Position numbers and translations under genes: made by a program. Below the pieces are notes generated by a model. The model ran no database searches, had not been told where the DNA came from, and saw nothing but the letters and a program-made list of their open reading frames with translations. This document shows positions 11,197 through 60,800 of a stretch of 64,000 nucleotides of DNA, one piece after another (the stretch's first letter is position 1; the number at the start of each line of letters is the position of its first letter). Source of the DNA: an uncultured Planctomycetales bacterium (GTDB lineage: Bacteria; Omnitrophota; Gorgyraeia; Gygaellales; Profunditerraquicolaceae); assembly GCA_964354795.1 (NCBI GenBank), contig CAYHBB010000040.1:12593-76592 (forward strand). The letters are read 5' to 3'.

Positions 11197-11221
11197 ACCG
11201 GTTTACCTATATATTAGGGCT

Positions 11222-24656: not shown

Positions 24657-24659
24657 ACT

Positions 24660-25547: not shown

Positions 25548-25549
25548 GG

Positions 25550-26869: not shown

Positions 26870-26893
26870 GATTCCTCCTTCCGCAGAAAGCGG

Positions 26894-26922: not shown

Positions 26923-27060
26923 TAAATTGAAAACCGGCCTTACCTATAATATGAATAGGGTTTTGTTCCGGGGGTTGATTCCGGAGGCAAGTAAATAATA
27001 CTAAAATGTAACATATTTCACAACCAAGGTCAAGGAGATTTGTGCTTGCCCCGAGTGAGA

Positions 27061-27753
27061 TTATGACCTTAAAATCCGTGACAATCCCATCAGGTCAGCT
27101 TTCTCAAGGCTCACCCCGGCGCGATATTCATTCTCACCGATAGGCTTTGTCCAGATGACCTCGCCTCTGGTATAAACAGGCTCTCCCTTGTCAGGTATCT
27201 GCAGCCAGATCTCAACCGTCGTTCGCGGCATTAATTCTTCTTTGGTGCTAAAGCCAATACCCTTAGCGCTTACATCCTGAGTAAGAGCCAAGCCCTCTTT
27301 GCCGCTGTTTAGATCCAGGAACCGCACAGGAAATTTCACCACAAATCTCTGGAAAATCCTTTTATCTTCCATAGACTCTACCGCCTTTTCTTCGGGCTCA
27401 AAATCCTGCCACCAGGTTTTTTCCAGCGCCTCGCGGTGATTCTCGGTTATATAGCGGTAAATCTTTTCCTTGTCGCTGTCTGCGATCCTGGTAAAATACA
27501 GGCCGTAAGTATTCACCCCTTCGCTATGTTTATACCAGCCTACCCAGGCCTCAATATTCAGCACAAAAGTATCTGTTAGCACTAGGGTTAGCTTAATAAA
27601 CTTGTCTTCGGGAAGCTTAAGCGGCAGGGAAAACTTGACCCCCATCATGCTAATATCATCGACATGACAGTTGACGAATTTCTCGGCCCCGGCCAGTCTC
27701 ATCTGCGCCGGCATTCCTACTTTCCATCTGGCGAATCTTCTGCGTACTTCCAT
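27061..27753 (-). CDS. tandem PilZ-domain protein (putative c-di-GMP receptor)
   Basis: 230 aa. There are two PilZ signature pairs: RRRFAR ... DDISMMG (domain 1) and KRIFQR ... DVSAKGIG (domain 2). These match RxxxR + DxSxxG. Confidence 0.65.
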   Translation of the reverse strand: MEVRRRFARWKVGMPAQMRLAGAEKFVNCHVDDISMMGVKFSLPLKLPEDKFIKLTLVLTDTFVLNIEAWVGWYKHSEGVNTYGLYFTRIADSDKEKIYRYITENHREALEKTWWQDFEPEEKAVESMEDKRIFQRFVVKFPVRFLDLNSGKEGLALTQDVSAKGIGFSTKEELMPRTTVEIWLQIPDKGEPVYTRGEVIWTKPIGENEYRAGVSLEKADLMGLSRILRS

Positions 27754-33800: not shown

Positions 33801-36800
33801 TGATCGTCTACCGCTTCGTTGGCGCGTCTTGTATCGCCTCTTGCCCAGGCGCGGCGCGCCTTCTCAAGGGCCGTTTGGGCGCAGGTGAGTTTATTGTAAA
33901 TCTCATCGAGCGCGGTTATTTCTTCCCGGGTCAGGAGGTCTATCGGGCCCTGTGATTCATACCTCTGGATCGCGGAATCGAGGAACGCGCGCTCATTTGG
34001 TGTGAAGTAAAATTCTGCCATACCTTTACGTTTCATAATAACCTTTAACTTATCCAGCGCCTTCCGGACCTTTATTGCGCTTTCGAGTTTTGCGTAAAGC
34101 GTATCAATAATGCCGAAATCGTCATCGCCCACGCCAGAGCGGGCTAAAAGCTCGTTAAGCGACGCCCGCTCATCCGGTGATAACGCCTGGCCAAAACGAG
34201 ATATATCATCCAGCCTCTTTGCGTATAGCGACGCCTGTTTTCGCTTTTTCGCTATGGCAGCTTCGACAGTCCCTTTTTCCGGAGGAAAATGAGTCGCGAT
34301 GTCATCCCTTCCTATGGAGAATTCGAAACCGCTAAGCCTGTTCTTTATCGTTACGAAATAATCAGGATAGTTGCCGAAAGCGTCCGGCTTTTTCCTTGCC
34401 GTAAAGTTGCCGGGGATATAATATATATCGACCGTGCCGTCCGCTGCTTTTATGACGCCCCATTCCTTAATCGCTTCTTCATAAATCTTCGATGAGCTAT
34501 GGGCAACTATCACATTTTCGCCGATGCGGGGTTTTTCCGCTGCGCTAACCACCGCCCCCAGCACGCAGGCGCCGAGAATTAGCGCCAGCCCGTGCACTGC
34601 GGTGAGTGCCGCCAGCGCGCCGATCGCCGCCGATGCGACGCCGATCATTATCAAAATTGAGCTTGCGCCGAACGTATCAGGACCTTCCTTATCATCAGAA
34701 AGGTCTCTGCTTTTATAGGGTTCGATAAGCGTAGCCTTTTCGGGGTCATTTACGATTTGCCAATTAAGATCCGCGGGTTTGATCTCTTTGGCTATCCAAG
34801 CCATTGTCAGATGCAGATGAGCCGGCGCGCTGGTCAACTTTTGACGAGGATCCGCGATTCTAACGATGATATCCTGCGCCCGGCATATCCTACCTTCCTC
34901 AATCCCCTGCTCTGGCTGGACATGACCGTAAATGGTATAGAGTTGTTTTCCCTCTCCATCATAGACTTCATGGTTGACAAATATAGTATTACCGATAAAA
35001 TCGTCGATTATCCGCACAATCTTTCCGCCGTAGATAAGCGGCACTCCTTGGCCCGGTTGGACATATTGAATCTTACCTTGTGAATCTTCATACGAATAAA
35101 GATCTATCCCTTCATGGCTAAAGGTGCTTAAGCGCCCTTTTTTCTCCCCCCACCAATATTTTTGGGCCTCAAAGAGCATATCCGGTTCAAAGACCCACTT
35201 TTTAAACCAGCCCGGCAATTTGAAACTCATCAGCCATTTTAGAACCGGACATGCGGCCAGTTCTCGCAGCGCCAGGCGCCATTCTTGAAATGCCTTATCT
35301 GCTTCTTCGCTGATCTTCGATTCATTCTCTTCAAGCTCATCCTGAATACCGGCTATTTCATCTATCAAACTTATTAAAATCTTTCTTTGTTTGATGATTT
35401 CCTCGGGATTTGCCTCAAACAACTCCCTCAACTCCTTTACCCTATCCCTTGCTACCGCAATTAAATCATCGATCTCTTTCAGGTCTCTTGAGTTCTCCAG
35501 CACAGAATCTGCAATTTCTCCGATATCAATAGAAATCAAGTCAATTAAGTACAATATCCTGTCTTCCCGCTCACTCGTTATCGATTCTTTGCCATCATCT
35601 TTTAACCTGCCTCTTTTCCCAATGGCTTCTCTTATTTTCTCCTGGACTTTTGGATCATTGTTCGCCCGCCAGACGATTGCGCTTTCCGCAAGCCCCATCT
35701 TGCCTTTGTAGCGCGTTTCTTGCGCGAGGCTTCTTACGCTCACAGGCATACCTTTTCTTTTCAATCTCTCTATGGCAAGCGATATTTCTCTATCATATGA
35801 TGAACCGACAACCAAAAGAGCTCTCCTTAGATCCGGATGCTCGTCAACAAATCTTCTGACTGTATTCTCATTACTCAGCAATAATATCGCGATCTCATGT
35901 AGGCTAACGGGAGAGCCTTGCGCCTGTAAATATGATATCGCTGAACGAATACTTTTCTCGGTTACAAAAGTGAATTTCGCATCGTCTGTAGCGGATTGTA
36001 AAGTTGTGGATAAAAGCGGGAAGGCAAAAAGCGCGGCTAATGCCGGTCCCGCCACATGCAAGGCAAATAACGGCGCCAGCACCAGTCCGGCAAACGCAAA
36101 AATAGCACAAATACCCCACAGCGACTCAATGCGGCTTGAGCCGGATTTCCCTGCAGAAGTATCTATCCCTCTGCCTGACCTTATCCTGGCGCAGATAAAA
36201 CTTATGATTGAAACAAAGATGTAGGATATGACTCCGATACCCAAAACTATTCCTACCGGCTTGAGGTATTTCTTGAGGCTAAGCGGTTTTGTCTCGGTTA
36301 CAGCAGTTACCTTAGCCCAATCTTCGGGCGCAACTCGCGCCCTTATCGCCTCCAGCGCCGCTTGTGCCGCTTGGCGCTCTGCTTTGGAGTGCTTGATTTC
36401 ATTCGCAGATATAAAGCGAAGTGAAGGCACGGCGCTTATATCGCCAAACCGGCTAAGCCTATGAATAGCAGCTAAACGGATGTTCAAATGCTTTACCTTC
36501 AGGCATTTCAGTAATGTGTCCCTGTCCGAGACAGACTCGGTAATAGATATAAGGCTTGAAGCTGCGGAATTACGCACCCCCTCATCTTCGTCGCTCAAGG
36601 CTTTAATTAGTGGCTCTATTGCCCTGAGATCTTTAAGCTCGCCCAAAGAACAGGCTGCAACGGATCTTAATCTATCGTTAGATCTGCTGTTTAAGTTCTC
36701 GATAAAAGCTGATACCGCTTGCTGATCGCCGATCCCAATCAGGATCTTGGCTACAGATTCAGAACCATATATTTTGTATATTTCGATTAAAACCGGGACT

Positions 36801-39800
36801 GCTTGTCTGTCTCCGGTTTTACCTAAGGCGATTGCGGCAGCTTCCATATCCTCAAAGCTGTATAAATCCTTAAATTCCTCAGCGAGGGCAGAGAATGCGG
36901 GAGGGCCGATATCAGCTAAGGCCCCCCAATCTTTCATGCCGATCAAATATGCAATCTTTTCCTGTAAGTCTTGCGGCTTCCAATCTAACTTACTTAATGA
37001 TCTTGCGCTGCAGCCACGGAGAAATTGCTTTTCGTTTTTCAGCACTTCGATCAGGGCCGGAATCGCTTGTCTGTCAGATATTTGGCCTAAGACCCACGCT
37101 GATGTACCGCGGATATTGATTTCTTCCTTTTTGTCCCTTAATAATCCTATAAGGACAGGAACTACGGATGTGTTAATCTTGCCTAAGCCAGCCAATGCTT
37201 CTAATGCACACAAGCGGCATTGCAAATTATCCTTATCTTTTAATGCCTCAATAAGGCCTGGGACTGCGGGCTGTCCGATTTCAATGAGAGCTTTAACTAC
37301 CAGGCTGCTAGCTTTGCCTCTTAAGGCTTTGATCAAAACAGGAACTGCAGGTTCTCCGATCCTCGCTAACTCAGTAATACGGGACTGAATGTCTTCTCTC
37401 CTATTATTAGACCAACTGTAATATTCTAAACTGGATATTATCTCCTCTATTCTTTCTTGTGTGACTTTGACTGTTTGAGCAATCAACGGCTTTGCAGCGT
37501 TATTTGTTTCCTGCGCATAGATAGCAGTGGAACTAAATACAGCCCAAGATAAAGCAGACATAACTAATACGATAAAAAGTGTAGAATTGATTTTTCTTGA
37601 TTTGATTCTGGTGTAAATAAAGCTTATGATCGAAACGAAGACGTAGAATATGACGCCGACACCCAAGATTATGCCTGCGGGTTTAAGGTATTTTTTGAGG
37701 TTAAGCGGTTTTTTCTCGGGCGCAGCCGTGGCCTTGGTCCATTCTTCGGGAGTGGCGCGCGCCTTGATCGCCTCCAGCGCCGCTGTGGCTGAATTACGAA
37801 TTTGTTTTGACTGTTTGATCTCATTTACGCTAATATCCCTAAGCGCTGCGATCACGCTGGTATCTCCTATCTCGCCAAGCCTCCTTATAGCAACTGAACT
37901 GATTTCCGGATGCTTTGCCTTTGTAACTTCGCTTAAAGCAGATAAATTTGTGGTATTTTCCACAGTGGCTCTAAGGCCTTCGGTGGCGATTTTGGATACT
38001 TCTTCGTCTTTATCATCCACCAGCCTGATTAACGCACAGACTTTACGCTCGGAATCAATTCTTGCCAACGTACGTGCAGCCGGCAGGCGGCCATATCTTC
38101 TTGTGTCTTTCAAAGACTGAACGAGCGGCTCAACAGCCGGTTCTCCGATTTTAACCAAAGCCTCTTCGGCAAAAGAAGAATCTTCGCTAAAGCCGCCGAA
38201 CATCTGCATAAGGGGCCCTATCGTTTTCTCCGGCCTTATTTTCACCAAAACAGTGATAGCAAATTTCTTGATCTCCGGGTCCTGGACAAATATATCCCTG
38301 ATCAAATATTCGGCTGCGGCCGGAGCGCTATTAACCAGCCCTTCATAATCCTGCTTTGCGGCCATATAGCGTATTTTATCTTCTTCTGATGCGGGAACCC
38401 ATTCCAGCGAAGTTAAGACTGAAACTACGGATTTTCTTTCCTGCGCGTAGTCATTGGAGAGATGTTTTACTAAGCGCGGGAGGCTCGGCTTTCCTATATT
38501 AATGAGCTTCTGCCAATCTTTACAGGCAATAGCGTAATCGATCTCCTCTGCTTCGCCGCGAGGACACCAATCCTTCTTTTTAAGCGCAGCTATTGCCGCA
38601 GATCGGACAGAATCCCTGCGATCAGTAAGAAGGATAAGGATTGAACCCGGCGCTCGGCTTTCGATTTCAAACAGCTTGGCGGAAAGTTCGTTATAATTAT
38701 ATTTCGCGGTTGTATACGAGATCTTCTCGTCCGAAGTCCGGGGTTTCCATCCAGCCATATCCAGAACCTTTATGGCAAGAGAAACTTTTTCGTTATCTGC
38801 ATCAGTAAGGAGATCGACCATTTGCGGGACAGCCGCATTTCTATTTTCCAGCGTCGGAACGATCCAATTATCCCTCTTGTATGCCAATAAAGGGCTTGCG
38901 TTTTCACTGGAAAACTCTTCAATCAATACGGGGGTCTCCTTAATAGAAGTATTGATTTTAAAAGAAAGAAAGATTATACCCGGCAAGAAAATGATCAGAA
39001 ATCCCGGAAGGCACTCTCTTCTTTCAAGCTTGTCCAAAACCAGCAAGAACGCTACTGCTGTAAAAAATCCCCATATAAGCGTACCCGCGGTAATAAGCGC
39101 GGGATTAAGCAGGTAAAGGACGATAAAAAATGCATTTATCAGCATAAAACCTAAAGAAGGAGAGTTTCCCTTGAGGCCGTCATCCCTGAGCTCGCAAATC
39201 AAGCTTATCGCGAAGAGCAATAGGTTTATCACCATCGCGGCAAGGATAACTTTTGCGAAAAAGGGCGTGGCTACGGCGGAACAAAGCTTTAAAACAAGTA
39301 GATAGATTGCTATCGAACCGAAAGAAAGAATATTAAATATCATGCCGGTCACCCCCCAATTTACGGCGGCAGGGTGTTTTTCGTCGAATATCCTTTCGTT
39401 TCCCATTTTACGCATAAAATAATAAAGAACAAAGACGCCTGCCAACATCACTATTACAACTATTCCTAAGCCGATGCCGTCATTTACAAAGGGGGTACTC
39501 AATGCCAATGGCAGAATGGCGCAATTGGCTTGCGTTATTTTTTTGACATCCTTTCCCTTTAGTTTCTGCCTTACAGTTGAGTTTTTACGGGAAAACACGT
39601 AACTTACTGCTGAAGCAAAAATATAAAACAAGGCAAATACTCCTAAGATTAGTCCTACAGGCTTGAGGTATTTCTTGAGGCTAAGGGACTGCTTGCTTGT
39701 TGCCTTGGCCCATTCTTCAGAGGAAACCCGTGCCTTAATCGCCTCCATTGCCTCTTGCGCTGCCTGGCGCTCTTCTTTGGAGTACTTGATTTCGTTTTGG

Positions 39801-42800
39801 GAGATGAATTGGAGTTTCGGGATTGCGCTTAGATCGCCCACCTTAACAAGACGCTTGAGAGAAAGTAGGCGAAAATCATAATCATTTACCTTCAGTAATC
39901 TTAATAATGCGGGGTTATCAGAAGAAGATTCTACGATGAGCTTAAGGGTTTCGGCTGCGGATTGGCGGTCAAACACCTCGTCATTTTTCATAACTGCGAT
40001 GAGAAATTCAACTGCGGAAGAGCCGATTTTAGCTAAGGCTTCGACTACGGATGGACGGACATGCCCATACTCATCTTTTAAAGCTGTGATAAGAGGCTTA
40101 ACTGCTCTTGGGTCTTTAAGTTCGGCTAAGGCTTTGGCTGCGGAGAATCGGATATCCCAATCGCCATAATCCAAGAATACTACCAACCTTTCTATTTCTT
40201 TTTTTGTAGCTTCATCTGTCTTAGTTGTCGCGGGGTTTGAATTTGTATCCTGCGCATAGGTAGCTGGAGAATAGAATATTGAAGAGGATAAAGCGAACAT
40301 CAATAATATGGTTAAAAGTTTGAGATTGGATCTGTTCAGGCGGGATCTTATCCTGGCGCTGATATAGCTTGCAAATGCAATAATAGCATAGAGCGCAGCC
40401 AGCGCGCCGGCGATTATTCCTGCGGCATTGAGGTATTTTTTGAGTTGAAGCGGCTTTTTCTCGGCTGCGCCAGTTGCCTTGGCCCATTCTTCTAAAGAGA
40501 CGCGCGCCTTAATCGCCTCCAGCGCTCCCTTGGCCGCCTGGCGCTCTCCACTGGAATACTTGAATTCGTTTTGGGCGATAAATTGCAGATTAGGGATAAC
40601 AGCTATGTCGCTAAACTGTCCCAGCCTCTGAATAGCCAAGAGATTGATTCCACCTTCATTTACTTCAATTAACTTTAGTAATACAGGTATATTTTGGGTG
40701 GATTGAGCAATGGATCGCATGACTGAAATTACTATTTTATGCTTAGCTTGATCCTGGTCTTTTAAAAGCTTGATAAGCGGTTCGACTGCTGGCTGTCCGA
40801 TTTTAATCAAGGTATTTGTCACTACCTGAAGGACATCGGGATCGTCGATTGTCAATAAGCTTAATAATGCCGAAACGCTGTTAAGAGACCCTATCGTCTC
40901 CCTTACTTCCTTAAATTCTTTTAGAGCATAGGCGATCGCGCGCTGGACTTCCTCATTCTTGTCTTCCTTCATTCTAATTAAAGTATCAAAATATTTCTTC
41001 AATGCTTCGTGGTCACCTTTGCTATCAACAATGCAAGCGCCCAAAGCGACGATAGTCCGCGCCCTGACTGCAGGAACCGCATTAGTTAAGTGCGTAGCAA
41101 GCAGGTCTCTATTTTTTGTTTCTTCGCATATTTTCTTTAAAGCCGTGGCTTCCTCGCTATAAACAGATAAATTACTATTATCCCATAATCTACGTGACTC
41201 TAATAAAGGAAGGATGGCCCGAGGGTCCCTCTTTTCTCCCAGCACTTTCACAATATTATCTCCCGTATGACCAAATATCTCGCCTTCTTTCAACTCCTCT
41301 ATTAATGGCTCTATGGTTCTTGGGTCTTGCAATGCGCATAAGATCTCGATAGGTTTCTCATCGCATAGATCTTTATGAAGCAGACGAGTAATGCTTTCTA
41401 AATCCAATTCTCCTTTCCTGATCGCTTCGCAAGCTTCTTTTATATCATTATCGCTGCGGCTATCATTACTTGGAATACAGAAAATCCTCCAAACAATAGG
41501 CGCAAGAGTTTTCTGTAAAACATCATTGACTGTCGCCTCGGCGACTTCATCATGCCCTCTCCAACTCCTAAGGTTATAATAATGTATCAACCCCTTCAGA
41601 ACATTATCATCCTCCAGCATCTTAGCTAATTCTTCGACAGAATGCTTTCTGACCTTTTGGTCATCGTCCCATAATCCTGTCAATAACTCATCTCTCTTCT
41701 GGGCATATGCATTAAGTTCTTTTGTTTGTTTTGTGCAGGCATTTGCAAAAAGGAATACTAAAGAAAATAAAGTAAACATTAAGAAAAGGCTCAGGAGCAT
41801 GGAATTAAACCTGCCTGATTTTAACCTGGCGCGAAAGAAACTAATAAGGCAGATAATAGGATAGAATAAAATAATCGCCCCTAAGATTATTCCCGCGGGC
41901 TTGAGGTATTTTTTGAGTTGAAGCGGCTTTTTCTCGGCTGCGCCAGTTGCCTTGACCCATTCTTCTGTGGAGACGCGCGCCTTGATTGCATTCAGAGCTC
42001 CCTTGGCTGCCTCGCGCTCTGCTTCCTTGAACCTAATTTTATTTGAGGCGATTAAATTTAGCCTGCGGATTGCGCTTGTGTCGCTGAACTGGCCAAGGCG
42101 CTGGATAGCGATAAGCCGAATTCTAGATTCCTTATCTCCTGCTTCTGTTAACCTTAGTAAAGCGGGCACATCTTTTAAGTTGCCCGCGAGAGATAAAAGA
42201 GCCCCAAGCGTTGACCGATTAACATCTTCACAAGTATGCCCCAAAGCTTTAATTAACGGCTCTACCGCTCTTTGGTCTGCGATCTTACCTAAAGCTTCGG
42301 CTGCGGATGAACGAAAGCTCCATTCTGTATAGCCTGCATCACCCAAAGCTTTAATCAATGGCTCTACCGCGGTTCGATCGCCGATCTTACCTAAGGCTTC
42401 GGCTGCGAGAGAACGGGCCTTTGGGTCCTTACCACTTAGAACCTTAATCAAAGGTTCTACTGCCGGCTGACCGATTTTTACCAGGGCTTCGGCATCGGGG
42501 GAGCGGGCAAGCCAGTCTTCATCTTTTAATGCCTCATCAAGAGCAGGAACTGCGGCAGGGCCGATTTTGGCTAGGGCTTCAGCTGCGGCTGAACGGACTT
42601 CTGGATACTGGTATTGTAAAACTCTAATAAGTGCTGGAACGGCATCCTTAGCAGCAGGACCGATTTCACCGAGGGCTTTGGCTACGGATATGGATGAGCG
42701 GACATACCAAAGTTTATCTTTCAATGCTTCGCTAAGGGCTGGGACCGCGTCCTTAGCGGCAGGGCCGATTTTACCTAAGGCGTCGGCAGCGGAACAACAT

Positions 42801-51800: not shown

Positions 51801-54800
51801 GCAATTTCTCGCTCTTGCTTTGAGTGCTTAAATTCGTTTCCGGCGATGAATTGAAGCTCGCTGGCTACATCTATATCGCCAATTTCAGCAAGCTTCTTTA
51901 TGGCTTGCAGATTGATATCTGATTCTTCAACATTTAATAACGCCCTCAATCCCGCTATATCCTCTGTAGATTCAGAAAATATTTTCAGACTATTTATCGC
52001 AACTTCATGCGTATCTTTATTTTGTAAAGCGTTGATTAAAGGCCCGATTGCCCGAGGGTCTTTAATCTTTGTTAAGATTTCTGCCGCTAATACACGAAGG
52101 ATGACATCTCTATCCTTCAATGTTTTTGTTAAAGAATCGACTGCGGGGGGGCCTATTTTAACTAAAGATTCTGATGCGATCTGGCGCACGGTAACGTCCT
52201 TGTCTTTCAAAGCATCTATTAACGGCTTGACGGCCCTTGGGTCATTGATTTCTCTCAGGGCTTTTGCTGCGGCTTCGCGCACCGGCATTTCTTCATCTCT
52301 TAAAGCTTTGATTAGCTGTTCAACTGCTCTTGGGTCTTTAAGCTCGCCTAAGACCTTGGCTGCGGATTCACGAACGAATAGGTAATCATCGGTTAAAGCT
52401 TTAATAATAATTTCGGATGCTCGCACATCTTTGCTCTTACCTAAAGCTTCGATAACGTGACTACGAAATCCTCCGTGTTTATCTCCCAAAGCCTCAGCTA
52501 GCGCTTCGAATGCTCGAGGGTCTTTAATTTGGCCTAAGCCCCGCACAGCATTCTCGCGCACCCAGAGATTCTCATTTTTTAAGGCGCCGATCAGAGAATC
52601 AACTGCCGGTTGTCCAATTTTAGCTAAAGCATCTGCCGCAACCTGACCAACCTCATTATGATAACTATAACGGGCTCTACTATACGCATTTGTATATCCA
52701 TCTCCCAAAGCCTTAATTAGAGGAGAAACAGCCTTTGAATCCCTCAAAACACCTAATATTTCAGCTGCTGTCTTACGGACAATATAAGATTCATCCCCCA
52801 AGGCTTCAATCATAGAAGTAACTGCTCCGGGATCTTCGATCTTGCCAAAAGCTCTTACTGCTTCCTTGCGAACATTCCGATCTTCATTATTCATTAATTT
52901 GCGTATCAATTCTTTTATCTTTTTCTGGCTGGCTTCGTCTGTCTGTGCGACTGACTGGATTTGTGTGGAATTCGTGTCCTGCGCATGGGTAGTCTCAGGT
53001 AAGATGGCAAAATAAGGTAAAGCGGATACTGCTAAGATAGACAAAAGTTTGGGATTAGTTTTTCTTGATTTTATCCTTGCGTAAATAAAACTTATGAGGC
53101 AAGCGACAGGATAAAGTAAAATAATTATTGCTGCAATTATGCCTGCGGGTTTGAGGTATTTTTTAAGTACAAGCTCTTTCTCGGGTGTAGCCGATTTCTT
53201 TGCCCATTCTTCAGGAGTGACTCTTGCCTTAATCGCTTCCAGCGCCTGCTTAGCGGCCTGGCGCTCTTCTTTGGAATATTTGATCTCGTTTTGCATAATA
53301 AATTGAAGCTGAGAAACCGTATTTATATCCCCGGCTTCGCCCAACTGCACTATTTGCTGTATAAATTGGCCCCTATTGCTCAATATCTCATCGGCCCATT
53401 CGTTTCTGAGCTTCTTTTCTTGCTCATAGTCCCGGCTTAAAACGTAAGAATGCCTTGTTTCCGGTAAATCACGCAGCCCATAATTAGAAAAGCCATCCTG
53501 TTCATCCTTCTTAGGCTCTATTATAAAGTACGGCTGTCCTTTACTTAATTTCTCCAACAGAGAAGATGTATCGCTAACAGCCATATTGAACTTGGGGTAC
53601 CAATATAGGCAAAGATATACACTAATAAAGACAGGAACAATCCAGATGAAAGGAGTAAGGCCGATCTTGCCTTCAAGAGTGAAAGATGAAGCCGTCCATA
53701 AAGAACGGGTTGCTTCTAGGCATTTGGCAAAGCATGGGCAAAGTAGAGCACCCCAAATAATGACGCCCCAAGATAAAAGAGCCGCATTTATAAGATGCAA
53801 GGTAAGGAATAATACGCCCCAGAAAATGACACTTTTTGCATGGCATTTTATAGCAGTATACCTTTCAACCTGCCTAGTTTCACTTACAGCTTTTATCAGG
53901 ACAAATGATTGGAACAAAATGTTTGCTACTAAGGTCATGGCTATGATTGCCGCTGCCAAGCCGCCAACAATATTTCCTGCTGTAAATTTATAGACAAATA
54001 GCGCTACGAAACAAGCGTAGGCCAGAAAATTACCCGCCCATGCCAAACCAACAACAGGACTTTCCTGAGCACCTATCTTCTTTATGGCTATTTTCGATAT
54101 GCCATAGAATATGCCTGCTAGGGCAATAAAAGCAAGAGCAGCATAAATTAAATCTGTATTTACTGTAGCGAATTTGTCCATAAAGGCCAAAGGAAGGAAA
54201 ATATTCAGGCAAGTTGTGCTGGTAGGGCCTTGTCCTTTTTGTTTCTGAATGAGGCCGCGCTTTATTCTGGCCCGTACATAACTGATGGCCGAAACAATAA
54301 TGTAAAGCGCCGCTGATATTCCTGCGATCATGCCTGCGGGCTTAAGGTATTTCTTAATATTACGCGGCTCTTTTACCGGAAATGCCTTTGCCCATTCTTC
54401 GGCAGGCGTGCGCGCCCTAATAGCTTCCAGCGCCTGCTTAGCGGCCTGGCGCTCTTGTTGGGAATGCTTAAATTCGTTAGCGGCGATGAATTGAATCCTG
54501 GGTAACGCTACAATACCCCCCACCTGGCCAAGCCTTCGAATTGAAATCAAATAAATCTTTGCATCCTTACTGTCTAAAAGCTTAATCAACAAAGACACAT
54601 CTTGAGTAACCTCGATAATATTCGTAAGGCTTGAATAAACAACCTCGCGAGCTCCTTCAGAATGTCCGTCTTTTAACAACTCGATTAAAGGCTCTACTGC
54701 CCGGGAATCTTGAATCTTTCCTAGGGCTTCAATCGTAGTCAATAAAACAGGCAAATCTTTTCCTTTCAGCAATTTCAGCAGCTCAGGGACTAACTCTCGC

Positions 54801-57800
54801 GTATCTGGACCCAACTCACCTATACAGAAAATCACTTGTTTTTGGAGCTCTTTGTCTTTATTGAAAATGTTCTCGCTAAAGACACGAATGGCTTTCTTGT
54901 CTTTCAATTGTCCGAGAGCGCTTAATGCCTTGGCCCTTACTCTAAGATTATCCGATCTGGCAAACTCAACTAGCATATCAAAAGAAGGAGAACCTGAAAT
55001 GTATTTAATAATCGTATTTTCTGATGCCATACGCACAGACTCATCTTCATCAGAAAGAGTCTTCAATAATATCTTTGTGATTTGGAGGTCTTCAAACGTC
55101 TCGATTGCTTCAATAGCCGCGACGCGGATCTCCGAATCAGGAACGGCTAGGATTTTCATGATCAATCCGTTGTTTTTAGAAGACCTGATCTCGTCTTTCA
55201 CCGAATCTCTGACTGAATCATTAACAAATCCTTTGCCTGCGCTTATTAAGCCAATAATGGCTTCCCATGATTCCGGAGTTCTCAACCCAACCAAAACTTT
55301 TATAAAGTTATCGGATGAAGAAAAGCCCGGCTTTAAACTTATTGCGTCAATAATATACGGAATTGCCTGATTGCCTGTTTCAGATAATCCTTTCCGATCA
55401 CACTTTGCTACAAAATATAATATCTTTAGCTCTTTATCGCGAGGCGTCCACGATAATTTATCCAATACTCTTACAGCAAAAGTCCGCGTTTCGAAATCTT
55501 TACTGCTCAACGCCGCTTCCAGATATGGTATTGCTGACTGACCGAACCCAAAAACTGTTTCCTCTAGATTTATCTTGCAATCTGAAGAAGCCTTCCCTGA
55601 AATCTTAATAATCTCGGGGACAATAGATTCATCGAATTGGGCTAACGTATGAAATATAGGGCCGAATCCTTGATCATACAAACTATGGTAAGGCCATCCT
55701 ATGCCACAAGTGAAATATCTTGACGAACTCAATGCTTCAATAAGGGCCGGTATTGCTTGTTTATCTCTAATCTCTCCAAGGGCAATTATCGCGCCCTCCC
55801 TGATCGAGGAAAACTTATTTTTTAAAGCTTCTGTCAAAAGCGGAACTGTCAATCTTTTATCCATCCTAACTATAGTTTTAATTGCAACATCACGGGGGCT
55901 GCTTAAGCCTCCTGTGAAAACTGGAAGATTATGCCCTGTGTCCGCTAACAATTCCAGTAACTCATTCAGGGCTGGTGTAGCCGGAGGGCCAATCTTAGTT
56001 AATGCTGCGGCCGCATCTTGGCGGACACGCGGATCTTGGTCGATCAATTTTTCTATCAATTCTTTGGTTATCTCTTGGATAGCTTTGTCGATTTGATTAG
56101 TTGCCGGATTTGCCTTGGTATCTTGTGCGTTGACAGTTAAAGAATAAAGTGCTGAAAATGGCAGGATAAACGCAAACAATAAGGTTAAGAAAGTAGGATT
56201 TGATTTTCCGGCTCGAATCTTCCTCAGGCTTATCCTGGCGCGAATATAGCTAATAAAGCAAACAACAGGATAGATCAAAATAAGCACCGCTAAAGTTATG
56301 CCTGCGGGCCTGAGGTATTTCTTAAGGCTAAGCGGCTCTTTTGCCGTAAATGCCTTTGCCCATTCTTCCGCAGGCGTGCGCGCCTTGATCGCCCCCAACG
56401 CTTCTTTAGCGGCTTGGCGCTCTTCTTTGGGGTGCTTGATTTCGTTCTGGACGATAAGTTGGATGCGGGGGATAACATTAGAACCGCCAACATTACCAAG
56501 CCGTTTAATAGTAATTATGCGTACGGCTTCAAATTCTCCTGTTATTGATATATTCCTTCTGGTATCTAATATTCTTAATAAGGCAGGGACATCTTGGGTG
56601 GATTCAGCAATTGATTTCAGGCTTGAAGCAGCAGCTGAGCTGACATCGACATCAGCATCTCTTAATGCTTCAACTAAAAGCCCTACCGCTGTTGAGTCTC
56701 TGAATTCACCCAAGACTTTAGCTGCAGCTAACCGCGTGTCTTTTCTGCCTTTTGTCAAGGCTACTGTTAATAATTCGATTTTTTCATATCTCCTGATGTA
56801 CCATTCAGGTAGAGCCTGGTCAAAATAGCGCAAGGCTTTGACTGCGGATTGGTGGACGATTTCAGAACCATCTAGCGCTGCAATTAAAACGGGGAAAGCT
56901 TCTTTCTCGCCGATTTCACCCAGGGCTTCAATTGCGGATTCGCGGACATGCCGATCTTCATCTTTCAAAGCTGTTATCAGTCCTTCTATCTTTTTCTTTG
57001 TGGCTTCATCTGTCTGGGTGATTGCGGGATTATTATTTGTATCCTGTGCGTAGGTAGTCGCGGTAGAAGATATGCCAAGGAGAAAAGAAAGGAATACCAA
57101 TAAGAATGCTGGAGCTTTTACATTCTTACTAACCGGAGGCGCTCTTGTATTCTGGGTGAGTTTCCGGAGGCTAAATAAAATTACTATGCCAAGTACAAGA
57201 AGACCTACGCAGATAAGGTTGGCATCAGCTGGGATGATATTGGTCATAAAGGCTAAAACATGGGCGGGAATGAGGGAATTTAACGAGTTTGTGTTTGCTT
57301 TGTCTTGCGGCCCCTGCGTCAAGGGGGACCTTTTTCTTGCGCGGATAAAGCTGATGAGGCAGATGACGGGATAAAGCAAAATAAGTATTCCTGCGATTAT
57401 GGCTGCGGGTTTAAGGTATTTCTTGAGGTTAAGAGGTTGTTTTGCTGTGGCCTTGGCCCATTCTTCGGGCGTGACGCGTAATTTTATCGCCTCCAGCGCT
57501 TCCTTGGCTGCCTGGCTCTCTGCTTTGGAAAATTTGATTTCATTCTGAGCAATTAACTGAAGTTTGAAAAGTGCGGTTATATCTCCTACTTCGCCAAGCC
57601 GAGTAATAGCAGCTATACGAAAACCTCCCTCATCTAAAAGCCTAACCAGCGTTGGGACATCCTGGGTGAATACAGTAATGGATTCAAGAGCCTTGGCTGC
57701 CTTTTCGCGGACACGACTATCGGATGATTGATATAATAATGCCTCAATAAGGGCTGGAACGGCGTCTTTGGCTGCTGGTCTAATTTGGCCTAAGGCTTCG

Positions 57801-60800
57801 GCTGCCCTCCAGCGTACCTCGTAACGCCCATGCTTCAATGCCTCAATAAGAGATGGGATTGCGGGAGGGCCGATTTTGCCTAAGGCTTCGGCTGCGCAGG
57901 AGCGGACATTACTATACTCATCCTCTAATGCCTCAATAAGAGATGGGATTGCGGGAGGGCCAATTTTGACGAGAGCTTCTGCTGCGGATAAACGGATAGA
58001 TTCATCTTTTAGCGCCTTAATAAGTAAGAATATAGCATCTTTGGCGTCAGGGCCAATTTGGCCTAAGGCTTCGGCTGCCTTCCGGCGGACAGAATCATCT
58101 TCATATTCATCTTTTAATGCCTCAATAAGTTTTGGCATTGCGTCTTTGGCAGGAGGACCAATTTGATCTAAAGCTTCTGCTGCGCATAAACGGATAGATT
58201 CATTTTTATCTTTTAATGCGTTAATTAGGGCTGGGATGGCGTCTCTGGCGGTAGGACCAATTTGGCCTAAGGCTTTGGTTGCCGCATAGCGAACAATAAA
58301 TTTTTCGCTTTTTAATGCTTCGCTAAGGGCCGGAACTGCATCTATGGCTGCTGGGCCGATTTTGCCTAAGGCTTCGGCTGCGGATTCGCGACCCCACCAA
58401 CCCTTATCTTTTAAGATTTCAATGAGGGCCGGGATGGCGTCTTTGGCGTCAGGGCCAATTTGGCCTAAGGCTTCGGCTGCGGTGCCGGCACCCGGGCGTC
58501 CAACTTTCAATGCCGCTATCAAAGCAGGGATTGCATCTTTAGCCGCAGGGCCGATCTTACCTAAGGCTTCGGCTGCCCTATGGCGGACAAACGGTTCTTT
58601 ATCCTTCAATACCTCGATAAGGGCGGGGACTGCTAAAGAACCGATTTTGCCTAGGGCATCGGCATCATAGCCATGAACATCTTTTAGTTTCCGTATCAAC
58701 TCTTCTATTCTCTTTTGTGTAGCCTCATCCGGTTGGAACTGGGTTATAGTGGTGTTGGTGGCGGGTTCCTGGGCAAGGGCAGTTGTAGTATTGGGCTGGC
58801 CGGTCAGTGTTGCTAGAAGGGCTAGAATAAAGGCTAGTGCTTTGGCAGGAGGAGCTCTTTGCTTCTGGGTAAGCTTGTAGAGGGCATAAATCAGGATAGC
58901 TAAGCTTGCCAGAACAAGGCTGGTATAGACAAGATAAGGACTAAGCAGGATAAGCTTATCGATGGATGCTAAGGGAAGGATCGGGAGTACAGAATTCAAC
59001 GTAGTGGTATTTTGACCTTGGCCGGGCTGATTCTGCGCTTTTTTCGATATTATCCTCGCGCGGATAATACTTATGATTGAGACTATGGCATAGAGTGCAA
59101 CCAGCGCGCCGGAGATTATGCCTGCGGGCTTGAGGTATTTCTTAAAGCTATGCGGCTCTTTTACCGGGAACGCCTTCGCCCACTCTCCGGCAGGCGTGCG
59201 CGCCTTGATCACCTCCAAAGCCTTTTTCGCTGCTTCGCGCTCTTCCTTGGAGTATTTAATTTCGTTTTGAGAGACGAGTCTGAGCATGAGGGCTGCATTT
59301 GTATCTGCGGTTACTGAAAGCCTGCGGATTGCTGCTAAGCGAGTCCGTATTACATCTGACCTAGCCTCTTTAATATATTCTTTTCTGGAACCACACCCAA
59401 AATTCTCAGAATTACCGACACGCCAGGTGTTTATCTCCAATATTTTTAATAAAACAGATGCATCATCCGTGGATTCCATAATCTTCTGAAGACTTTCTGC
59501 TGCATAACTTCGAACCTGAGGATCTAACAAATCTTTGATAAGAAGATCTACTGCCCTTGCTTCTTTAAGCTCACCTAATGCTATAATTGCGCCTCGATGG
59601 ACCCTCCAGGTGCTGTCTTTCATTGCCTTCAATAAAGGTTCTACAGCCGGCTGACCTATTTTAGCCAAAGCTACCGGAGCTTCAATAAAACCGACATTCC
59701 CGCTTTCATCGTCTAAGGCGCTCATTAAAGGAGCTATCGCCCTTGGATCCCCGATTTCGCCTAAGGCGTAAGCCGCGCTATCACGAATGAAAATAATTTG
59801 ATCATAATTAACCCCCCTCAAGACCCTGATCAAAGGCTCAACAGCTGCCGGGTCTTTGATTTCAGCTAGGGTCCTAATAGCTGTTTCGCGAACGCGCCAA
59901 TCTTTATCCTCTAGCTTTCCTATCAATTCTTCTATTTTCTTTTGCTTGGTTTCGTCTGGCTGGGTGATTACGGGTTGTGTGTCCGTATTAGTATTCTGAG
60001 CAAAGACCACTGCGGGAGCAAACACGCAGGAAGATAAAGCGAATATTAAAAATAAAGCTGTGAATTTGGAATTGGATCTGCCTGATCTTATCCTTGCGCG
60101 GATATAACTTATAGCTGAGGCAATGACGTAGAGCGCTGCCAGCGCGCCTACGATTATGCCTGCGGGCTTGAGGTATTTCTTAAATTTAAGCGGCTCTTTT
60201 GCCGGAAATGCCTTTGCCCATTCTCCCGCAGAGGTACGCGCCTTTATGGCTTCCAGCGCTTCCTTGGCGGCCTGGCGCTCTTCTTTGGAGTTCTTGAATT
60301 CGTTGGAAGCGATAAACTGCAGTCTCTGCACTATGGATATGTCACCCACCTGGCAAATACGGTTAAGTGCGGATAGACTTACGCCTGACTGCCTGATTTC
60401 CATCAGGCGCAACAATAGGGTTATGTCTGAAGTATCCTTAGCAATCGTTTGTAGTCCGAAGACAGAGGCCTCAACAAGAGACTGATTAGAGCCATTTAAA
60501 GACTCAATTAAGCAATCGGCTGCCGGATCGCCTATTTTAGCCAAAGCAGAGACTATGGATTCGGCTTTTTCTGCGGGTAAAAAAGAATGTTCCTTTAATT
60601 CTTTGGCGAGAGCGGGAATGGCGCTTTTTGCTTCAGGGCCGATGTTCCCCAGCGCCGTTACCGCCTCCTCTCCTGCGCCATAATCATTCAAGGCTTCGAC
60701 AAGAGCAGGGACCGCATCTTTGGCCGCGGGGCCGATGCGGCCTAATAATCTCGCGGCGTATTTATGGTCGTCATAATCATTGTTTTTCAGTGCCGCGATA

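What the first reader, a model, noticed from the sequence alone, without database searches (positions are those of the whole stretch)
36200..60200. About 15 tandem paralogous modules: [signal-peptide-like AxA-Q segment]-[HEAT array]-[conserved tail ...KKYLKPAGII]-[TM helix]. This suggests a polyprotein-like organisation
The conserved tail LQFIAQNEIKYSKEERQAAKEALEAIKARTPAEEWAKA..K(K/E)PL.LKKYLKPAGII plus a TM helix ending IRARI(R/K)S recurs about 15 times. It is followed 20-60 aa later by a second hydrophobic segment that looks like a cleavable signal peptide (e.g. LLTILLMFALSSSIFYSPATYAQD, FLLVFLSFLLGISSTATTYAQD, ILPFFFILSFLAITNPNLAYAQE). Each unit resembles an independent secreted or lipoprotein-like HEAT-repeat protein of 300-700 aa. 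These units are fused in frame without stops. The plus-strand motif ggcttgaggtatttcttgag marks units at ~36257, 37678, 39660, 40427, 41896, 47128, 49216, 51700, 53148, 54340, 56305, 57408, 59121 and 60165. Two readings are possible. One is a membrane-threaded mega-scaffold that presents all HEAT arrays on one face. The other is a polyprotein processed by signal peptidase at each internal AxA site. Both would be unusual in bacteria.
Basis: partly seen in the sequence, partly recalled or inferred. Interest (0 to 1): 0.85.

Follow-up and report, generated by a model that had tools for sequence, protein, structure and literature searches.

The report
Repeated export cassettes in giant gene
One giant Omnitrophota gene (over 12,000 codons) repeats a "signal peptide – HEAT-repeat domain – membrane anchor" cassette about a dozen times in frame, and each internal signal peptide keeps a textbook signal-peptidase cut site, which suggests where such giant proteins might be cut into pieces.

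Summary
One uninterrupted minus-strand reading frame (27839 to at least 64000; it runs off the window) encodes more than 12,053 aa.

It contains:
- 15 copies of a conserved tail (last HEAT pair, EEWAKA, KKYLKPAG, a TM helix, RARIRS);
- 12 signal-peptide-like segments, each ending [S/T/A/V/I]-x-A|Q.

The host is an Omnitrophota bacterium. Giant multi-TM proteins are already known in that phylum. What is new is the lineage-specific amplification of a complete export cassette: relatives carry one tail each.

A 62-helix topology model is self-consistent. It places 12 HEAT arrays in the periplasm and the enzyme-like domains in the cytoplasm.

Several facts point to signal peptidase I cutting at these sites:
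- A(-1) and Q(+1) are the only near-invariant positions in otherwise scrambled hydrophobic segments.
- The same motif ends genuine N-terminal signal peptides of neighbouring genes.
- The motif is kept in distant relatives.

I judge cleavage slightly more likely than not (about 0.5). It is untested.

This is a new variant of a known kind. It gives a concrete, testable answer to the open question of whether these giants are cleaved. The "lipoprotein" and "sorting-signal" readings are not supported.

The parts
27839..64000 (-). Giant coding frame. Stop codon at 27839-27841. Open to the window edge at 64000, so the true start lies outside the window. At least 12,053 codons.
36167..60367 (-). Span holding the 15 conserved tail blocks (last HEAT pair, EEWAKA, KKYLKPAG, stop-transfer TM, RARIRS). 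Blocks at 60074-60367, 59036-59329, 57317-57610, 56216-56509, 54248-54541, 53057-53350, 51611-51904, 50111-50404, 49124-49417, 47039-47332, 41807-42100, 40334-40627, 39569-39862, 37589-37882, 36167-36460.
62081..62149 (-). SP-like segment 1 (aa 584-606, ..FSSTASYA|EE). Follows the cytoplasmic HAD + SLOG domains.
59999..60073 (-). SP-like segment 2 (aa 1276-1300, ..APAVVFA|QN)
58772..58843 (-). SP-like segment 3 (aa 1686-1709, ..NTTTALA|QE). Last helix of a 4-helix junction.
57047..57124 (-). SP-like segment 4 (aa 2259-2284, ..STATTYA|QD). Last helix of a 4-helix junction.
56126..56206 (-). SP-like segment 5 (aa 2565-2591, ..YSLTVNA|QD)
52982..53062 (-). SP-like segment 6 (aa 3613-3639, ..LPETTHA|QD)
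51461..51541 (-). SP-like segment 7 (aa 4120-4146, ..NQRKAYA|QY). Preceded by a 34-aa loop with 10 K/R among the 30 residues counted.
50021..50101 (-). SP-like segment 8 (aa 4600-4626, ..SSTASYA|QG)
42911..42988 (-). SP-like segment 9 (aa 6971-6996, ..NPNLAYA|QE). Follows the second, degenerate HAD domain.
41702..41812 (-). SP-like segment 10 (aa 7363-7399, long c-region, ..KELNAYA|QK)
40253..40330 (-). SP-like segment 11 (aa 7857-7882, ..YSPATYA|QD)
37514..37594 (-). SP-like segment 12 (aa 8769-8795, ..SSTAIYA|QE)
53600..54214 (-). Seven-helix membrane insert 1 (aa 3229-3433). Replaces the SP-like helix after tail 3182.
48509..49084 (-). Seven-helix membrane insert 2 (aa 4939-5130). Followed by a periplasmic 'WKP'-repeat/HEAT domain.
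38954..39529 (-). Seven-helix membrane insert 3 (aa 8124-8315). Paralogue of insert 2 (E 2e-45).
44831..46495 (-). Conserved core domain of unknown function (aa 5802-6356; invariant RYPDAxQGYLNLAIA and FWNPRG). Predicted cytoplasmic. This is the part shared with relatives.
43049..44701 (-). Cytoplasmic HEAT array (aa 6400-6660) plus a degenerate HAD-like domain (aa 6700-6950; DLDGT replaced by GLEDC)
62309..63757 (-). HAD (Hydrolase_3, aa 48-245) and SLOG cluster4 (aa 378-530) domains. Used as cytoplasmic markers to anchor the topology.

Best explanation
Proposed identity. This is part of an Omnitrophota giant inner-membrane protein in which one export cassette has been amplified in tandem. 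The cassette is: signal peptide, a T/N/Q-rich linker, a periplasmic HEAT solenoid, a capping tail, a stop-transfer helix and a basic cytoplasmic stub.

Proposed mechanism.
1. During translation each signal-like helix (N-in, C-out) restarts Sec translocation and pushes the next HEAT array into the periplasm.
2. Each tail helix (KKYLKPAG-TM-RARIRS) stops translocation.
3. The chain is thereby sewn through the membrane about 62 times. Twelve HEAT arrays and three HEAT-like domains end up outside. The enzyme-like domains (HAD, SLOG, unknown core domain, 89-aa repeats) stay inside.
4. Signal peptidase I then cuts after each [S/T/A/V/I]-x-A, exposing an N-terminal Gln. This yields about 13 separate pieces. 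Most are type-I HEAT ectodomain proteins held by a C-terminal helical hairpin whose second helix is the spent signal peptide of the next unit.

Status of each step.
- Shown: the repeats, the single open frame, HEAT identity, Omnitrophota origin, the lineage-specific amplification, and the conservation pattern of the cut-site motif.
- Inferred: the topology (about 0.8). It rests on the positive-inside rule, domain parity and comparison with relatives.
- Inferred: the cleavage (about 0.5). It rests on sequence only.
- Not determined: what the HEAT arrays bind. They resemble protein-binding alphaRep solenoids.
For: Repeats and frame.

HEAT identity: Pfam HEAT_2/HEAT_PBS. A single-sequence AF2 model of one cassette (mean pLDDT 71) shows a 17-residue signal helix, a disordered c-region and linker, helical repeats, and a 34-residue tail/TM helix. 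Its best PDB matches are alphaRep HEAT-like binders at 31-36% identity.

Topology:
- A hand-curated 62-helix model alternates consistently. Every short 'in' loop carries 2-10 K/R. Short 'out' loops carry 0-1.
- The model puts HAD, SLOG and the core domain inside.
- Relatives lacking the 'weak + TM' insert (P0045, L005, L002) show that this insert must be topologically neutral.
- In L009 a SLOG domain is followed by an odd (7) helix insert before the HEAT/tail, as in the window.
- Stand-alone relatives P0046 and P0062 start with N-terminal signal peptides, so these HEAT units are exported proteins.

Cleavage-site features:
- All 12 segments have a basic n-region, a hydrophobic core followed by a polar S/T/P/N-rich c-region, -1 = A (12/12), -3 = S/T/A/V/I (12/12) and +1 = Q (11/12).
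- Information content peaks at -2, -1 and +1 (3.2-4.5 bits, against 1.3-2.4 bits at the h-region and c-region positions upstream of the site). The h-region is not conserved.
- The tails average only 53% identity and synonymous sites are partly randomised.
- Genuine N-terminal signal peptides of neighbouring genes end the same way..RVSYA|QE..MVARA|QE..FCFA|QN. So do those in Omnitrophota relatives.
- The motif is kept in distant relatives with a single cassette: P0044 internal ..RIYA|QE after two HAD domains, L005 ..TTVA|QE, P0057 ..DAVA|QT, P0052 ..MVFS|QN.
- No Met is conserved before the SP-like helices, so internal translation starts do not explain separate units.

Established knowledge (from memory, not checked here):
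- Signal peptidase I recognises the -3/-1 pattern after a short N-in/C-out hydrophobic segment, whether or not that segment is at the N-terminus. Examples are engineered internal cleavage cassettes in E. coli Lep and the Bradyrhizobium FbcH cytochrome b/c1 precursor.

From papers read here:
- h-region length separates cleaved signals from signal anchors (PMC2120157, abstract).
- Q at +1 is the known 'Q-rule' of signal peptidase I substrates in Bacteroidetes (PMC5837995).
Against: - There is no experimental or proteomic evidence of cleavage for this or any related protein.
- The paralogues are not independent. Synonymous sites are not saturated (0.54 identical codons against 0.35 expected), so part of the motif conservation is shared descent.
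- No signal-peptide or topology predictor (SignalP, DeepTMHMM) could be run. The TM list is hand-curated from a hydropathy scan. It counts five weakly hydrophobic 'LNSxxPxxPLAF' segments as membrane-crossing on comparative grounds only.
- Distance from the last basic residue to the cut is 22-26 aa in 11 segments and 36 aa in the twelfth (the segment ending at aa 7399). That is at the long end for cleaved signals.
- The tight hairpin loops (10-17 aa) might restrict peptidase access.
- Five of the 15 tails are not followed by a cleavable-looking helix, so any processing would be partial.
- No signal peptidase or glutaminyl cyclase gene lies in the window.
Confidence: 0.5

Rival explanations
1. 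Uncleaved membrane-threaded mega-scaffold. The topology is the same as in the best explanation, but the signal-like helices are permanent TM helices. One polypeptide of more than 1.3 MDa displays a row of HEAT solenoids on the periplasmic face, each tethered at both ends. The AxA|Q motifs are inherited remnants of the ancestral N-terminal signal peptide.
For: Published descriptions treat Omnitrophota giants as single multi-TM chains (10.64898/2026.06.07.730766). Synonymous sites between copies are not saturated, so the duplications are not ancient. The T/N/Q-rich linker after each site could simply be a flexible tether. Five junctions lack any cut site, so covalent linkage through the membrane is tolerated in this protein.
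Against: A single substitution at -1 would abolish cleavage. Yet A(-1), small(-3) and Q(+1) are kept in 12/12, 12/12 and 11/12 copies while the rest of the helix has diverged. The motif is also kept in an internal position in P0044. No known property of signal peptidase I spares internal signals that fit the rule (own knowledge).
Confidence: 0.38
2. Inverted topology. The HEAT arrays are cytoplasmic, and the short basic loops between the tail helix and the SP-like helix face the periplasm. The 'signal peptides' would then be ordinary N-out/C-in helices and could not be cleaved.
For: HEAT-repeat proteins are most often cytoplasmic. The KKYLKPAG flank before each tail helix is itself basic. The 2026 preprint reads many TM-only giants as mostly cytoplasmic.
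Against: It would put loops with 3-10 K/R outside and violate the positive-inside rule at about 25 loops. It would put HAD, SLOG and the core domain outside. Relatives P0046, P0062, P0057 and L005 begin their HEAT units with N-terminal signal peptides. Other stand-alone HEAT_2 proteins have signal peptides or lipoboxes.
Confidence: 0.05
3. The tail (KPAG motif + TM + basic cluster) is a C-terminal-type sorting signal, processed by a sortase-, exosortase- or rhombosortase-like enzyme rather than (or in addition to) signal peptidase.
For: The tripartite layout (short conserved motif, hydrophobic helix, Arg/Lys cluster) is the layout of LPXTG, PEP-CTERM and GlyGly-CTERM signals (own knowledge; sequence). 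The helix has conserved Y and S positions.
Against: No NCBIfam or Pfam sorting-signal model matches the junction at E <= 0.01. The element is internal, not C-terminal. No sortase-like gene lies in the 27 kb downstream. In relatives the tail helix leads straight into further membrane helices and a cytoplasmic domain, so it acts as a normal stop-transfer anchor.
Confidence: 0.03
4. Artefact. The long frame would be an assembly chimera of repeats, or a decaying pseudogene, rather than one real gene.
For: The source is a metagenome-derived contig, and repeats can mis-assemble. One relative (L002) shows a frameshift and an in-frame TAA.
Against: 36 kb without a stop cannot arise by chance. The copies are only 39-69% identical in their best-conserved part, far too diverged to collapse or chimerise in assembly. 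Independent relatives have frames open for more than 7,213 and 4,899 codons with the same domain order. An independent JGI contig carries the same 3' end and neighbours.
Confidence: 0.02

Closest known systems
Omnitrophota giant membrane proteins (Archaeovorin / multi-enzyme class; West-Roberts et al. 2023 preprint 10.1101/2023.11.21.568195; 2026 preprint 10.64898/2026.06.07.730766; Velamenicoccus archaeovorus 39,678-aa protein)
   Same: Same phylum. One ORF of more than 12,000 codons with dozens of TM helices. HEAT_2, HAD and SLOG/Lysine_decarbox-like domains. A carbohydrate ABC importer and glycoside hydrolases sit next to the gene. Whether these proteins are cleaved is stated as an open question in that literature.
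   Different: No SecA_DEAD, C39 or S8 domain was found in the part visible here. The papers propose C39/S8 autoproteolysis and give no cut sites, and one pipeline suppressed internal signal-peptide calls as artefacts. Here the candidate sites are 12 canonical signal peptidase I motifs inside a tandemly amplified cassette. Neither paper's text, as searched by term and in the sections read, describes this.
Flavivirus-type polyprotein processing by host signal peptidase (own knowledge; cf. 10.1101/2025.03.29.646078, listed)
   Same: Stop-transfer and signal helices alternate, forming hairpins. The second helix of each hairpin is the signal for the next lumenal or periplasmic domain and ends in a small-x-small site. 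After cutting, it stays as the C-terminal helix of the preceding product.
   Different: That system is a eukaryotic ER and a viral genome, with different proteins in each unit and cleavage demonstrated experimentally. Here the units are bacterial paralogous copies and cleavage is only inferred.
Bradyrhizobium japonicum FbcH cytochrome b/c1 precursor (own knowledge; not retrievable in the paper library)
   Same: A bacterial membrane polyprotein is split at an internal signal peptide following N-terminal TM helices.
   Different: One cut and two unrelated products, against 12 candidate cuts in a repeated cassette. No homology.
Bacteroidetes Q-rule for signal peptidase I substrates (PMC5837995, PMC10653852)
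   Same: Gln sits immediately after the cut site. This holds in 11/12 internal sites and in 3 of 5 genuine N-terminal signal peptides of neighbouring genes.
   Different: The rule is described as specific to Bacteroidetes, and this host is Omnitrophota. No glutaminyl cyclase was looked for outside the window. The sample is small.
Stand-alone exported HEAT_2/HEAT_PBS proteins (e.g. P0062, 478 aa: SP, two HEAT units, LKKY-TM, basic C-terminus; P0046 from a Planctomycetota MAG)
   Same: Same linker motif (DEATQKKI[ED]ELI), same HEAT type, same capping tail (..IK.KV.PEEWAK..). P0062 also has the same LKKY juxtamembrane motif and TM anchor (hhalign probability 93.6%).
   Different: In those proteins the HEAT units are joined directly in the periplasm, with one signal peptide and at most one anchor. 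In the window a TM hairpin with a fresh signal peptide separates the units.

Membership tests
Omnitrophota giant multi-TM proteins | Single ORF of more than 10,000 codons | tested here: met
   At least 12,053 codons, open at the window edge
Omnitrophota giant multi-TM proteins | Host belongs to phylum Omnitrophota | tested here: met
   The neighbouring MnmG's best named hits are all Candidatus Omnitrophica/Omnitrophota, up to 87% identity. Core-domain relatives lie on Omnitrophota MAG contigs.
Omnitrophota giant multi-TM proteins | Many TM helices spread along the chain | tested here: met
   78 overlapping hydropathy peaks, curated to 62 helices. No dedicated predictor was available.
Omnitrophota giant multi-TM proteins | Divergent SecA_DEAD domain (present in most, per West-Roberts et al.) | tested here: not met
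   No SecA hit in Pfam scans of all 12,019 aa. The N-terminal part of the gene lies outside the window.
Sec-type signal peptide cleaved by signal peptidase I | Basic n-region, short hydrophobic core, polar c-region | tested here: met
   All 12 segments. The AF2 model shows a 17-residue helix followed by a disordered c-region.
Sec-type signal peptide cleaved by signal peptidase I | Small or aliphatic residue at -3 and small residue at -1; no Pro at +1 | tested here: met
   -3 = S/V/A/T/I in 12/12, -1 = A in 12/12, +1 = Q or E
Sec-type signal peptide cleaved by signal peptidase I | N-terminal position in the precursor | tested here: not met
   All 12 are internal (aa 584-8795). In relatives P0057, L005, P0052 and P0062 the equivalent segment is at or near the N-terminus.
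Sec-type signal peptide cleaved by signal peptidase I | Actual cleavage | not testable with these tools
   Needs proteomics or expression experiments. SignalP was not available.
Lipoprotein signal peptide (signal peptidase II) | Lipobox [LVI][ASTVI][GAS]C at the end of the h-region | tested here: not met
   None of the 12 has it; only 'FANAC' in the segment ending at aa 7399. The neighbouring SBP gene has a true lipobox (..GFSAGC) for comparison.
C-terminal sorting signals (LPXTG, PEP-CTERM, GlyGly-CTERM and similar) | Match to a curated sorting-signal model, C-terminal position, cognate sorting enzyme | tested here: not met
   No NCBIfam hit for the junction. The element is internal. No sortase-like neighbour.
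HEAT_2 / PBS-lyase HEAT-like repeat proteins | Significant match to PF13646 / PF03130 and an alpha-solenoid fold | tested here: met
   HEAT_2 E = 0 with 35 + 14 stretches. The AF2 model matches alphaRep structures at E 3e-6.

The most novel reading that the evidence does not exclude
A bacterial signal-peptidase-processed polyprotein. One gene of more than 36 kb would be translated once, threaded co-translationally through SecYEG, and cut at a dozen internal AxA|Q sites. The result would be a stoichiometric set of separate membrane-anchored periplasmic HEAT proteins plus cytoplasmic enzyme modules. This would be the bacterial counterpart of flavivirus polyprotein biogenesis. It would also give a general answer to how Omnitrophota giant proteins are handled.
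Probability: 0.45. Interest if true: 0.8.

Novelty: new variant of a known kind. Interest (0 to 1): 0.62.

Why it matters
Omnitrophota giant genes are a recognised puzzle. The literature asks explicitly whether their products act as one chain or are cut into pieces, and notes that no cleavage points are known (10.1101/2023.11.21.568195).

This locus offers 12 precisely placed candidate cut sites of a ubiquitous enzyme. They come with an internal control: the same motif ends genuine signal peptides of the neighbouring genes. They also come with a simple readout: peptides starting with (pyro)Gln-Asp/Glu-Thr-Asn, as opposed to peptides spanning A|Q.

If cleavage is confirmed, three things follow:
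- It would show that bacteria can use signal peptidase to process a long polyprotein.
- It would explain why fusing genes into giants can pay off: one targeting event, fixed stoichiometry and co-localisation in an ultra-small cell.
- It would change how topology pipelines should treat 'internal signal peptide' calls, which are currently discarded as artefacts.

If cleavage is refuted, the locus is still a clean example of how a giant protein grows by tandem duplication of a topologically neutral export cassette.

Tried and rejected
1. Tail profile (A1) against the word-indexed 5.8-billion protein set: no hit, not even self. The giant itself is evidently not in that index.
2. Tail patterns in GTDB genome contigs and in JGI metagenome contigs: pattern matches, but no tblastn-confirmed relative. 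Only the exhaustive HMM search of 1.84 billion representatives found relatives: 22 hits, 5 below 1e-10.
3. A whole-cassette query hit only generic HEAT proteins, through the repeats.
4. Exact look-up of the PilZ neighbour in the contig index failed, although the protein is in the cluster table.
5. My by-eye guesses of an M23 peptidase (about aa 9590-9700) and a SAM methyltransferase (about aa 10050-10200) were not confirmed by Pfam or NCBIfam. The only hit was a 16-bit CpaM-like match. I make no claim on them.
6. Core domain: no Pfam, NCBIfam or PDB-sequence hit. The AF2 model has pLDDT 61 and Foldseek gives no match below E 0.001.
7. P0057 as a 'stand-alone cassette gene' was rejected as clean evidence. 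On its contig the downstream part of the family follows after a frameshift at an A6 run and then an in-frame TAA, so it may be a broken or mis-assembled single gene. P0062 is the reliable stand-alone case.
8. Internal translation starts as the source of separate units: rejected, because there is no conserved Met before the SP-like helices.
9. Sorting-signal reading of the tail: rejected.
10. A literature search for bacterial internal-signal polyproteins in the held library found nothing usable. The FbcH and Lep-cassette precedents are cited from memory only.

Full report
WHAT IS THERE

The region lies inside a single minus-strand reading frame. The ORF listing reports 27839..63898, or 12,019 aa from a GTG. 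Six-frame translation shows the frame is open all the way to base 64000, giving 12,053 codons. The 34 residues upstream of the nominal start read IPVFIRDWATKGKHVSHTPAYFDDTSRIQNLIFN. That matches the end of a conserved domain that recurs at aa 5802-6356 of the same protein (..GHTPGYFDDKEYLRIVHLFFKF..). The gene therefore begins outside the window and is larger than 12,053 aa. In what follows, aa n corresponds to window position 63898-3(n-1).

CHECK OF THE OBSERVATION

- The DNA 20-mer occurs 13 times with at most 3 mismatches, against 0.01 expected.
- The protein tail occurs 15 times between aa 1240 and 9209. It consists of the last HEAT helix pair..EAIKARV.PEEWAKA.., KKYLKPAG, a 19-21-residue helix with conserved Tyr/Ser, and RARIRS.
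- The 15 copies align with 64% mean column identity. A profile built from them scores each at 123-149 bits.
- Pfam confirms the HEAT arrays: HEAT_2 with 35 + 14 stretches, plus HEAT_PBS.
- Twelve segments look like signal peptides. Each ends [S/V/A/T/I]-x-A followed by Q (E once).

1. There are 12 SP-like segments, not 15, and the first lies at window 62081-62149, outside the stated range.
2. Only 8 tails are followed directly by an SP-like helix. Two are followed by one after an extra helix pair. Five are followed by seven-helix inserts or other membrane domains.
3. The unit between tails 5585 and 7329 is a different, enzyme-like block.

HOST AND KNOWN CONTEXT

The flanking genes are ordinary chromosomal genes: PilZ, a sugar ABC importer, glycoside hydrolases, ROK, LacI, RNR, MnmG, Pit/PhoU and a two-component system. 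The MnmG protein's best named relatives are all Candidatus Omnitrophica/Omnitrophota, up to 87% identity. The window's proteins sit on a 162,689-bp NCBI contig. An independent JGI contig carries the same 3' end and the same neighbours.

Giant proteins with tens to hundreds of TM helices, rich in HEAT_2, HAD and Lysine_decarbox-like domains, and often next to carbohydrate import genes, are already described for this phylum (10.1101/2023.11.21.568195; 10.64898/2026.06.07.730766). The 'membrane-threaded mega-protein' as such is therefore not new. Those papers state that it is unknown whether and where the giants are cleaved, and they speculate on C39/S8 autoproteolysis. One pipeline suppressed internal signal-peptide calls as artefacts.

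RELATIVES

The tail family is rare. There was no hit in the word-indexed protein set, in GTDB genomes or in JGI metagenome contigs. An exhaustive HMM search of 1.84 billion representatives found 22 hits.

- The strong hits (P0041-P0045; P0052 is weaker, E 2.1e-5) come from Omnitrophota or 'Desantisbacteria' MAGs where named. They align to aa 5500-6960 of the window protein: HEAT, one tail with its TM, membrane helices, a conserved roughly 550-aa domain of unknown function, HEAT, then HAD.
- Scanning all fetched loci with the tail profile gives one tail per relative and 15 in the window.
- L009, an Omnitrophota MAG, is open for more than 7,213 codons on both sides. It has the order SLOG, seven-helix insert, HEAT-like domain, tail, core, HEAT, HAD.

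The amplification of the cassette is therefore specific to this lineage.

The single cassette of relatives also starts with an SP-like segment carrying the same motif:
- P0044 has ..RIYA|QE, internal, after two HAD domains at about aa 2560.
- L005 has ..TTVA|QE.
- P0057 has ..DAVA|QT and P0052 has ..MVFS|QN.

Two smaller proteins show the HEAT unit in stand-alone exported form:
- P0062 (478 aa) consists of an N-terminal signal peptide, two HEAT units, LKKY-TM and a basic C-terminus. It was found with the same gene structure and intergenic spacers in three samples. hhalign to the tail profile gives 93.6% probability.
- P0046, from a Planctomycetota MAG, consists of a signal peptide followed by HEAT units joined directly with no membrane hairpin.

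P0057 looked like a stand-alone cassette. On its contig, however, the rest of the family gene follows after a frameshift at an A6 run and then an in-frame TAA. I do not rely on it.

TOPOLOGY (INFERRED)

I curated 62 helices from a hydropathy scan. Starting from cytoplasmic HAD/SLOG domains, strict alternation gives a self-consistent model.

- Every short 'in' loop carries 2-10 Lys/Arg. Short 'out' loops carry 0-1.
- Each tail helix runs out-to-in and each SP-like helix runs in-to-out.
- Both HAD-like domains, the SLOG domain, the unknown core domain and the C-terminal 89-aa repeats fall inside.
- Twelve HEAT arrays and three HEAT-like 'WKP' domains fall outside. One HEAT array (aa 6400-6660) falls inside.

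The model counts five weakly hydrophobic LNSxxPxxPLAF segments as membrane-crossing. This is supported by comparison. Relatives without the 'weak + TM' insert (P0045, L005, L002) have the same conserved flanks, so the insert must cross the membrane an even number of times. L009 independently shows a cytoplasmic SLOG domain followed by an odd number (7) of helices before the HEAT/tail.

The N-terminal signal peptides of P0046, P0062, L005 and other stand-alone HEAT_2 proteins show that such HEAT arrays are exported. The inverted topology would violate the positive-inside rule at about 25 loops.

ARE THE INTERNAL SIGNAL PEPTIDES CUT? (INFERRED)

For cleavage:
- All 12 segments have a basic n-region, a hydrophobic core followed by a polar S/T/P/N-rich c-region, and -3/-1 residues that fit the signal peptidase I rule.
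- Anchored at the site, information content is 3.2-4.5 bits at -2 (Tyr 8/12), -1 (Ala 12/12) and +1 (Gln 11/12). It is 1.3-2.4 bits at the h-region and c-region positions upstream of the site.
- In the alignment of the eight simple hairpins, the only invariant columns of the SP-like helix are one Leu, A(-1) and Q(+1).
- The copies are not recent. Tails are 39-69% identical (mean 53%). Identical amino acids use identical codons in 54% of cases, against 35% expected from codon usage.
- Genuine N-terminal signal peptides of neighbouring genes end in the same way..LRVSYA|QEAEP..PMVARA|QERAA..LSFCFA|QNLPC. Two others end ..ASFA|A and ..WAHA|Y. Three signal peptides on Omnitrophota relatives' contigs also have Q at +1.
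- The internal sites thus match the organism's own cut-site consensus. That consensus resembles the 'Q-rule' described for Bacteroidetes signal peptidase I substrates, where the exposed Gln is cyclised (PMC5837995, PMC10653852).
- A single-sequence AF2 model of one cassette (mean pLDDT 71) shows a 17-residue signal helix, a disordered c-region and linker, HEAT repeats, and a continuous 34-residue juxtamembrane/TM helix. The solenoid matches alphaRep HEAT-like binder proteins.
- From established knowledge (memory, not verified here): signal peptidase I does not require an N-terminal position. Engineered internal cleavage cassettes in Lep and the Bradyrhizobium FbcH cytochrome b/c1 precursor are cut. 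h-region length separates cleaved signals from signal anchors (PMC2120157, abstract).

Against cleavage:
- There is no experimental evidence.
- The paralogues are not independent.
- No predictor could be run.
- Eleven segments measure 22-26 residues from the last basic residue to the site, which is on the long side; the twelfth, ending at aa 7399, measures 36.
- Five junctions have no cut site.

I put cleavage at about 0.5, the uncleaved scaffold at about 0.4, and everything else at about 0.1.

If the chain is cut, most products would be type-I HEAT ectodomain proteins. Each would be anchored by a C-terminal hairpin whose second helix is the spent signal peptide of the next unit. This is the arrangement known from flavivirus polyproteins.

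ALTERNATIVES REJECTED

- Lipoprotein signals: no lipobox.
- Sorting-signal reading of the tail: no NCBIfam or Pfam model matches, the element is internal, and there is no sortase-like neighbour.
- Internal translation starts: no conserved Met.
- Assembly artefact: the copies are too diverged, and relatives have the same long frames.

VERDICT

The object is a member of the known Omnitrophota giant membrane proteins. It carries a previously undescribed, lineage-specific tandem amplification of a complete export cassette, including 12 internal sites that fit signal peptidase I. This makes it a new variant of a known kind. Its value is that it turns an open question about giant proteins into a simple proteomic or expression test.

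Noticed in passing
window 63899-64000 (minus strand): The giant frame is still open at the window edge. The 34 residues before the nominal GTG start match the C-terminal end of the unknown core domain (..HTPAYFDD..). A second copy of that domain, and the true start of the gene, therefore lie upstream, outside the window.
   Followed up: partly
window 44831-46495 (aa 5802-6356); L003-L023: A conserved domain of about 550 aa with unknown function (invariant RYPDAxQGYLNLAIA, FWNPRG, PEHFYLL). It has no Pfam, NCBIfam or PDB-sequence hit, and its AF2 model is poor (pLDDT 61). Full-length relatives occur in Omnitrophota giants. Its C-terminal half has 26-35% relatives on contigs labelled Woesearchaeota, Methanosarcinales, Elusimicrobiota and Deltaproteobacteria.
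   Followed up: partly
window 30029-32401 (aa ~10500-11290): Eight or nine tandem 88-91-aa repeats (NVDVRIQRFLIRELLEETGKSRLSQL..DALGDVELELT..) in the predicted cytoplasmic C-terminal part. The only family hit is a weak DUF4290-like match.
   Followed up: partly
window 36005-36121 and 29849-29974 (aa 9260-9298, 11309-11350): A second recurrent membrane element: a tight helical hairpin with the shared motif LAPxxxxxxHxxxPALAALFxxPLLxxTxQS. It flanks the C-terminal soluble blocks.
   Followed up: no
window 53600-54214, 48509-49084, 38954-39529: Three paralogous seven-helix membrane inserts. Inserts 2 and 3 match at E 2e-45, and insert 1 is a weaker relative. Inserts 2 and 3 are followed by a HEAT-like domain with repeated W-K/S/V-P motifs, whereas insert 1 is followed only by a ~150-aa linker leading into the next tail. 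A homologous insert sits in the Omnitrophota giant on L009.
   Followed up: partly
window 43049-43801 (aa 6700-6950): The second HAD-like domain is a paralogue of the first (E 3e-11). It has lost the catalytic DxD motif (GLEDC instead of DLDGT), whereas relatives keep DLDDT/DLDGT at this position. It is probably inactive in this genome.
   Followed up: partly
window 17325-18962, 20235-21446, 21493-23802 (N-termini); L011, L013, L021: Genuine N-terminal signal peptides here often expose Gln at +1 (..CFA|QN, ..ARA|QE, ..SYA|QE; relatives ..GFA|QV, ..GFA|QI, ..AFS|QA). This hints at a Q-rule-like habit outside Bacteroidetes. The sample is very small.
   Followed up: partly
L002 1160-1540: In one relative, the cassette gene and the downstream membrane/core part are separated by a +1 frame change at an A6 run (..gagagaaaaaatcATGAATAA..). 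The core part is then interrupted by a single in-frame TAA where relatives have Glu. This could be a pseudogene, a sequencing error or recoding.
   Followed up: partly
window 21493-27753: Directly downstream of the giant gene lie a PilZ-domain protein, a sugar-type ABC importer (SBP plus two permeases) and TIM-barrel glycoside-hydrolase-like secreted proteins. This fits the published note that carbohydrate import systems sit next to Omnitrophota giant genes.
   Followed up: no
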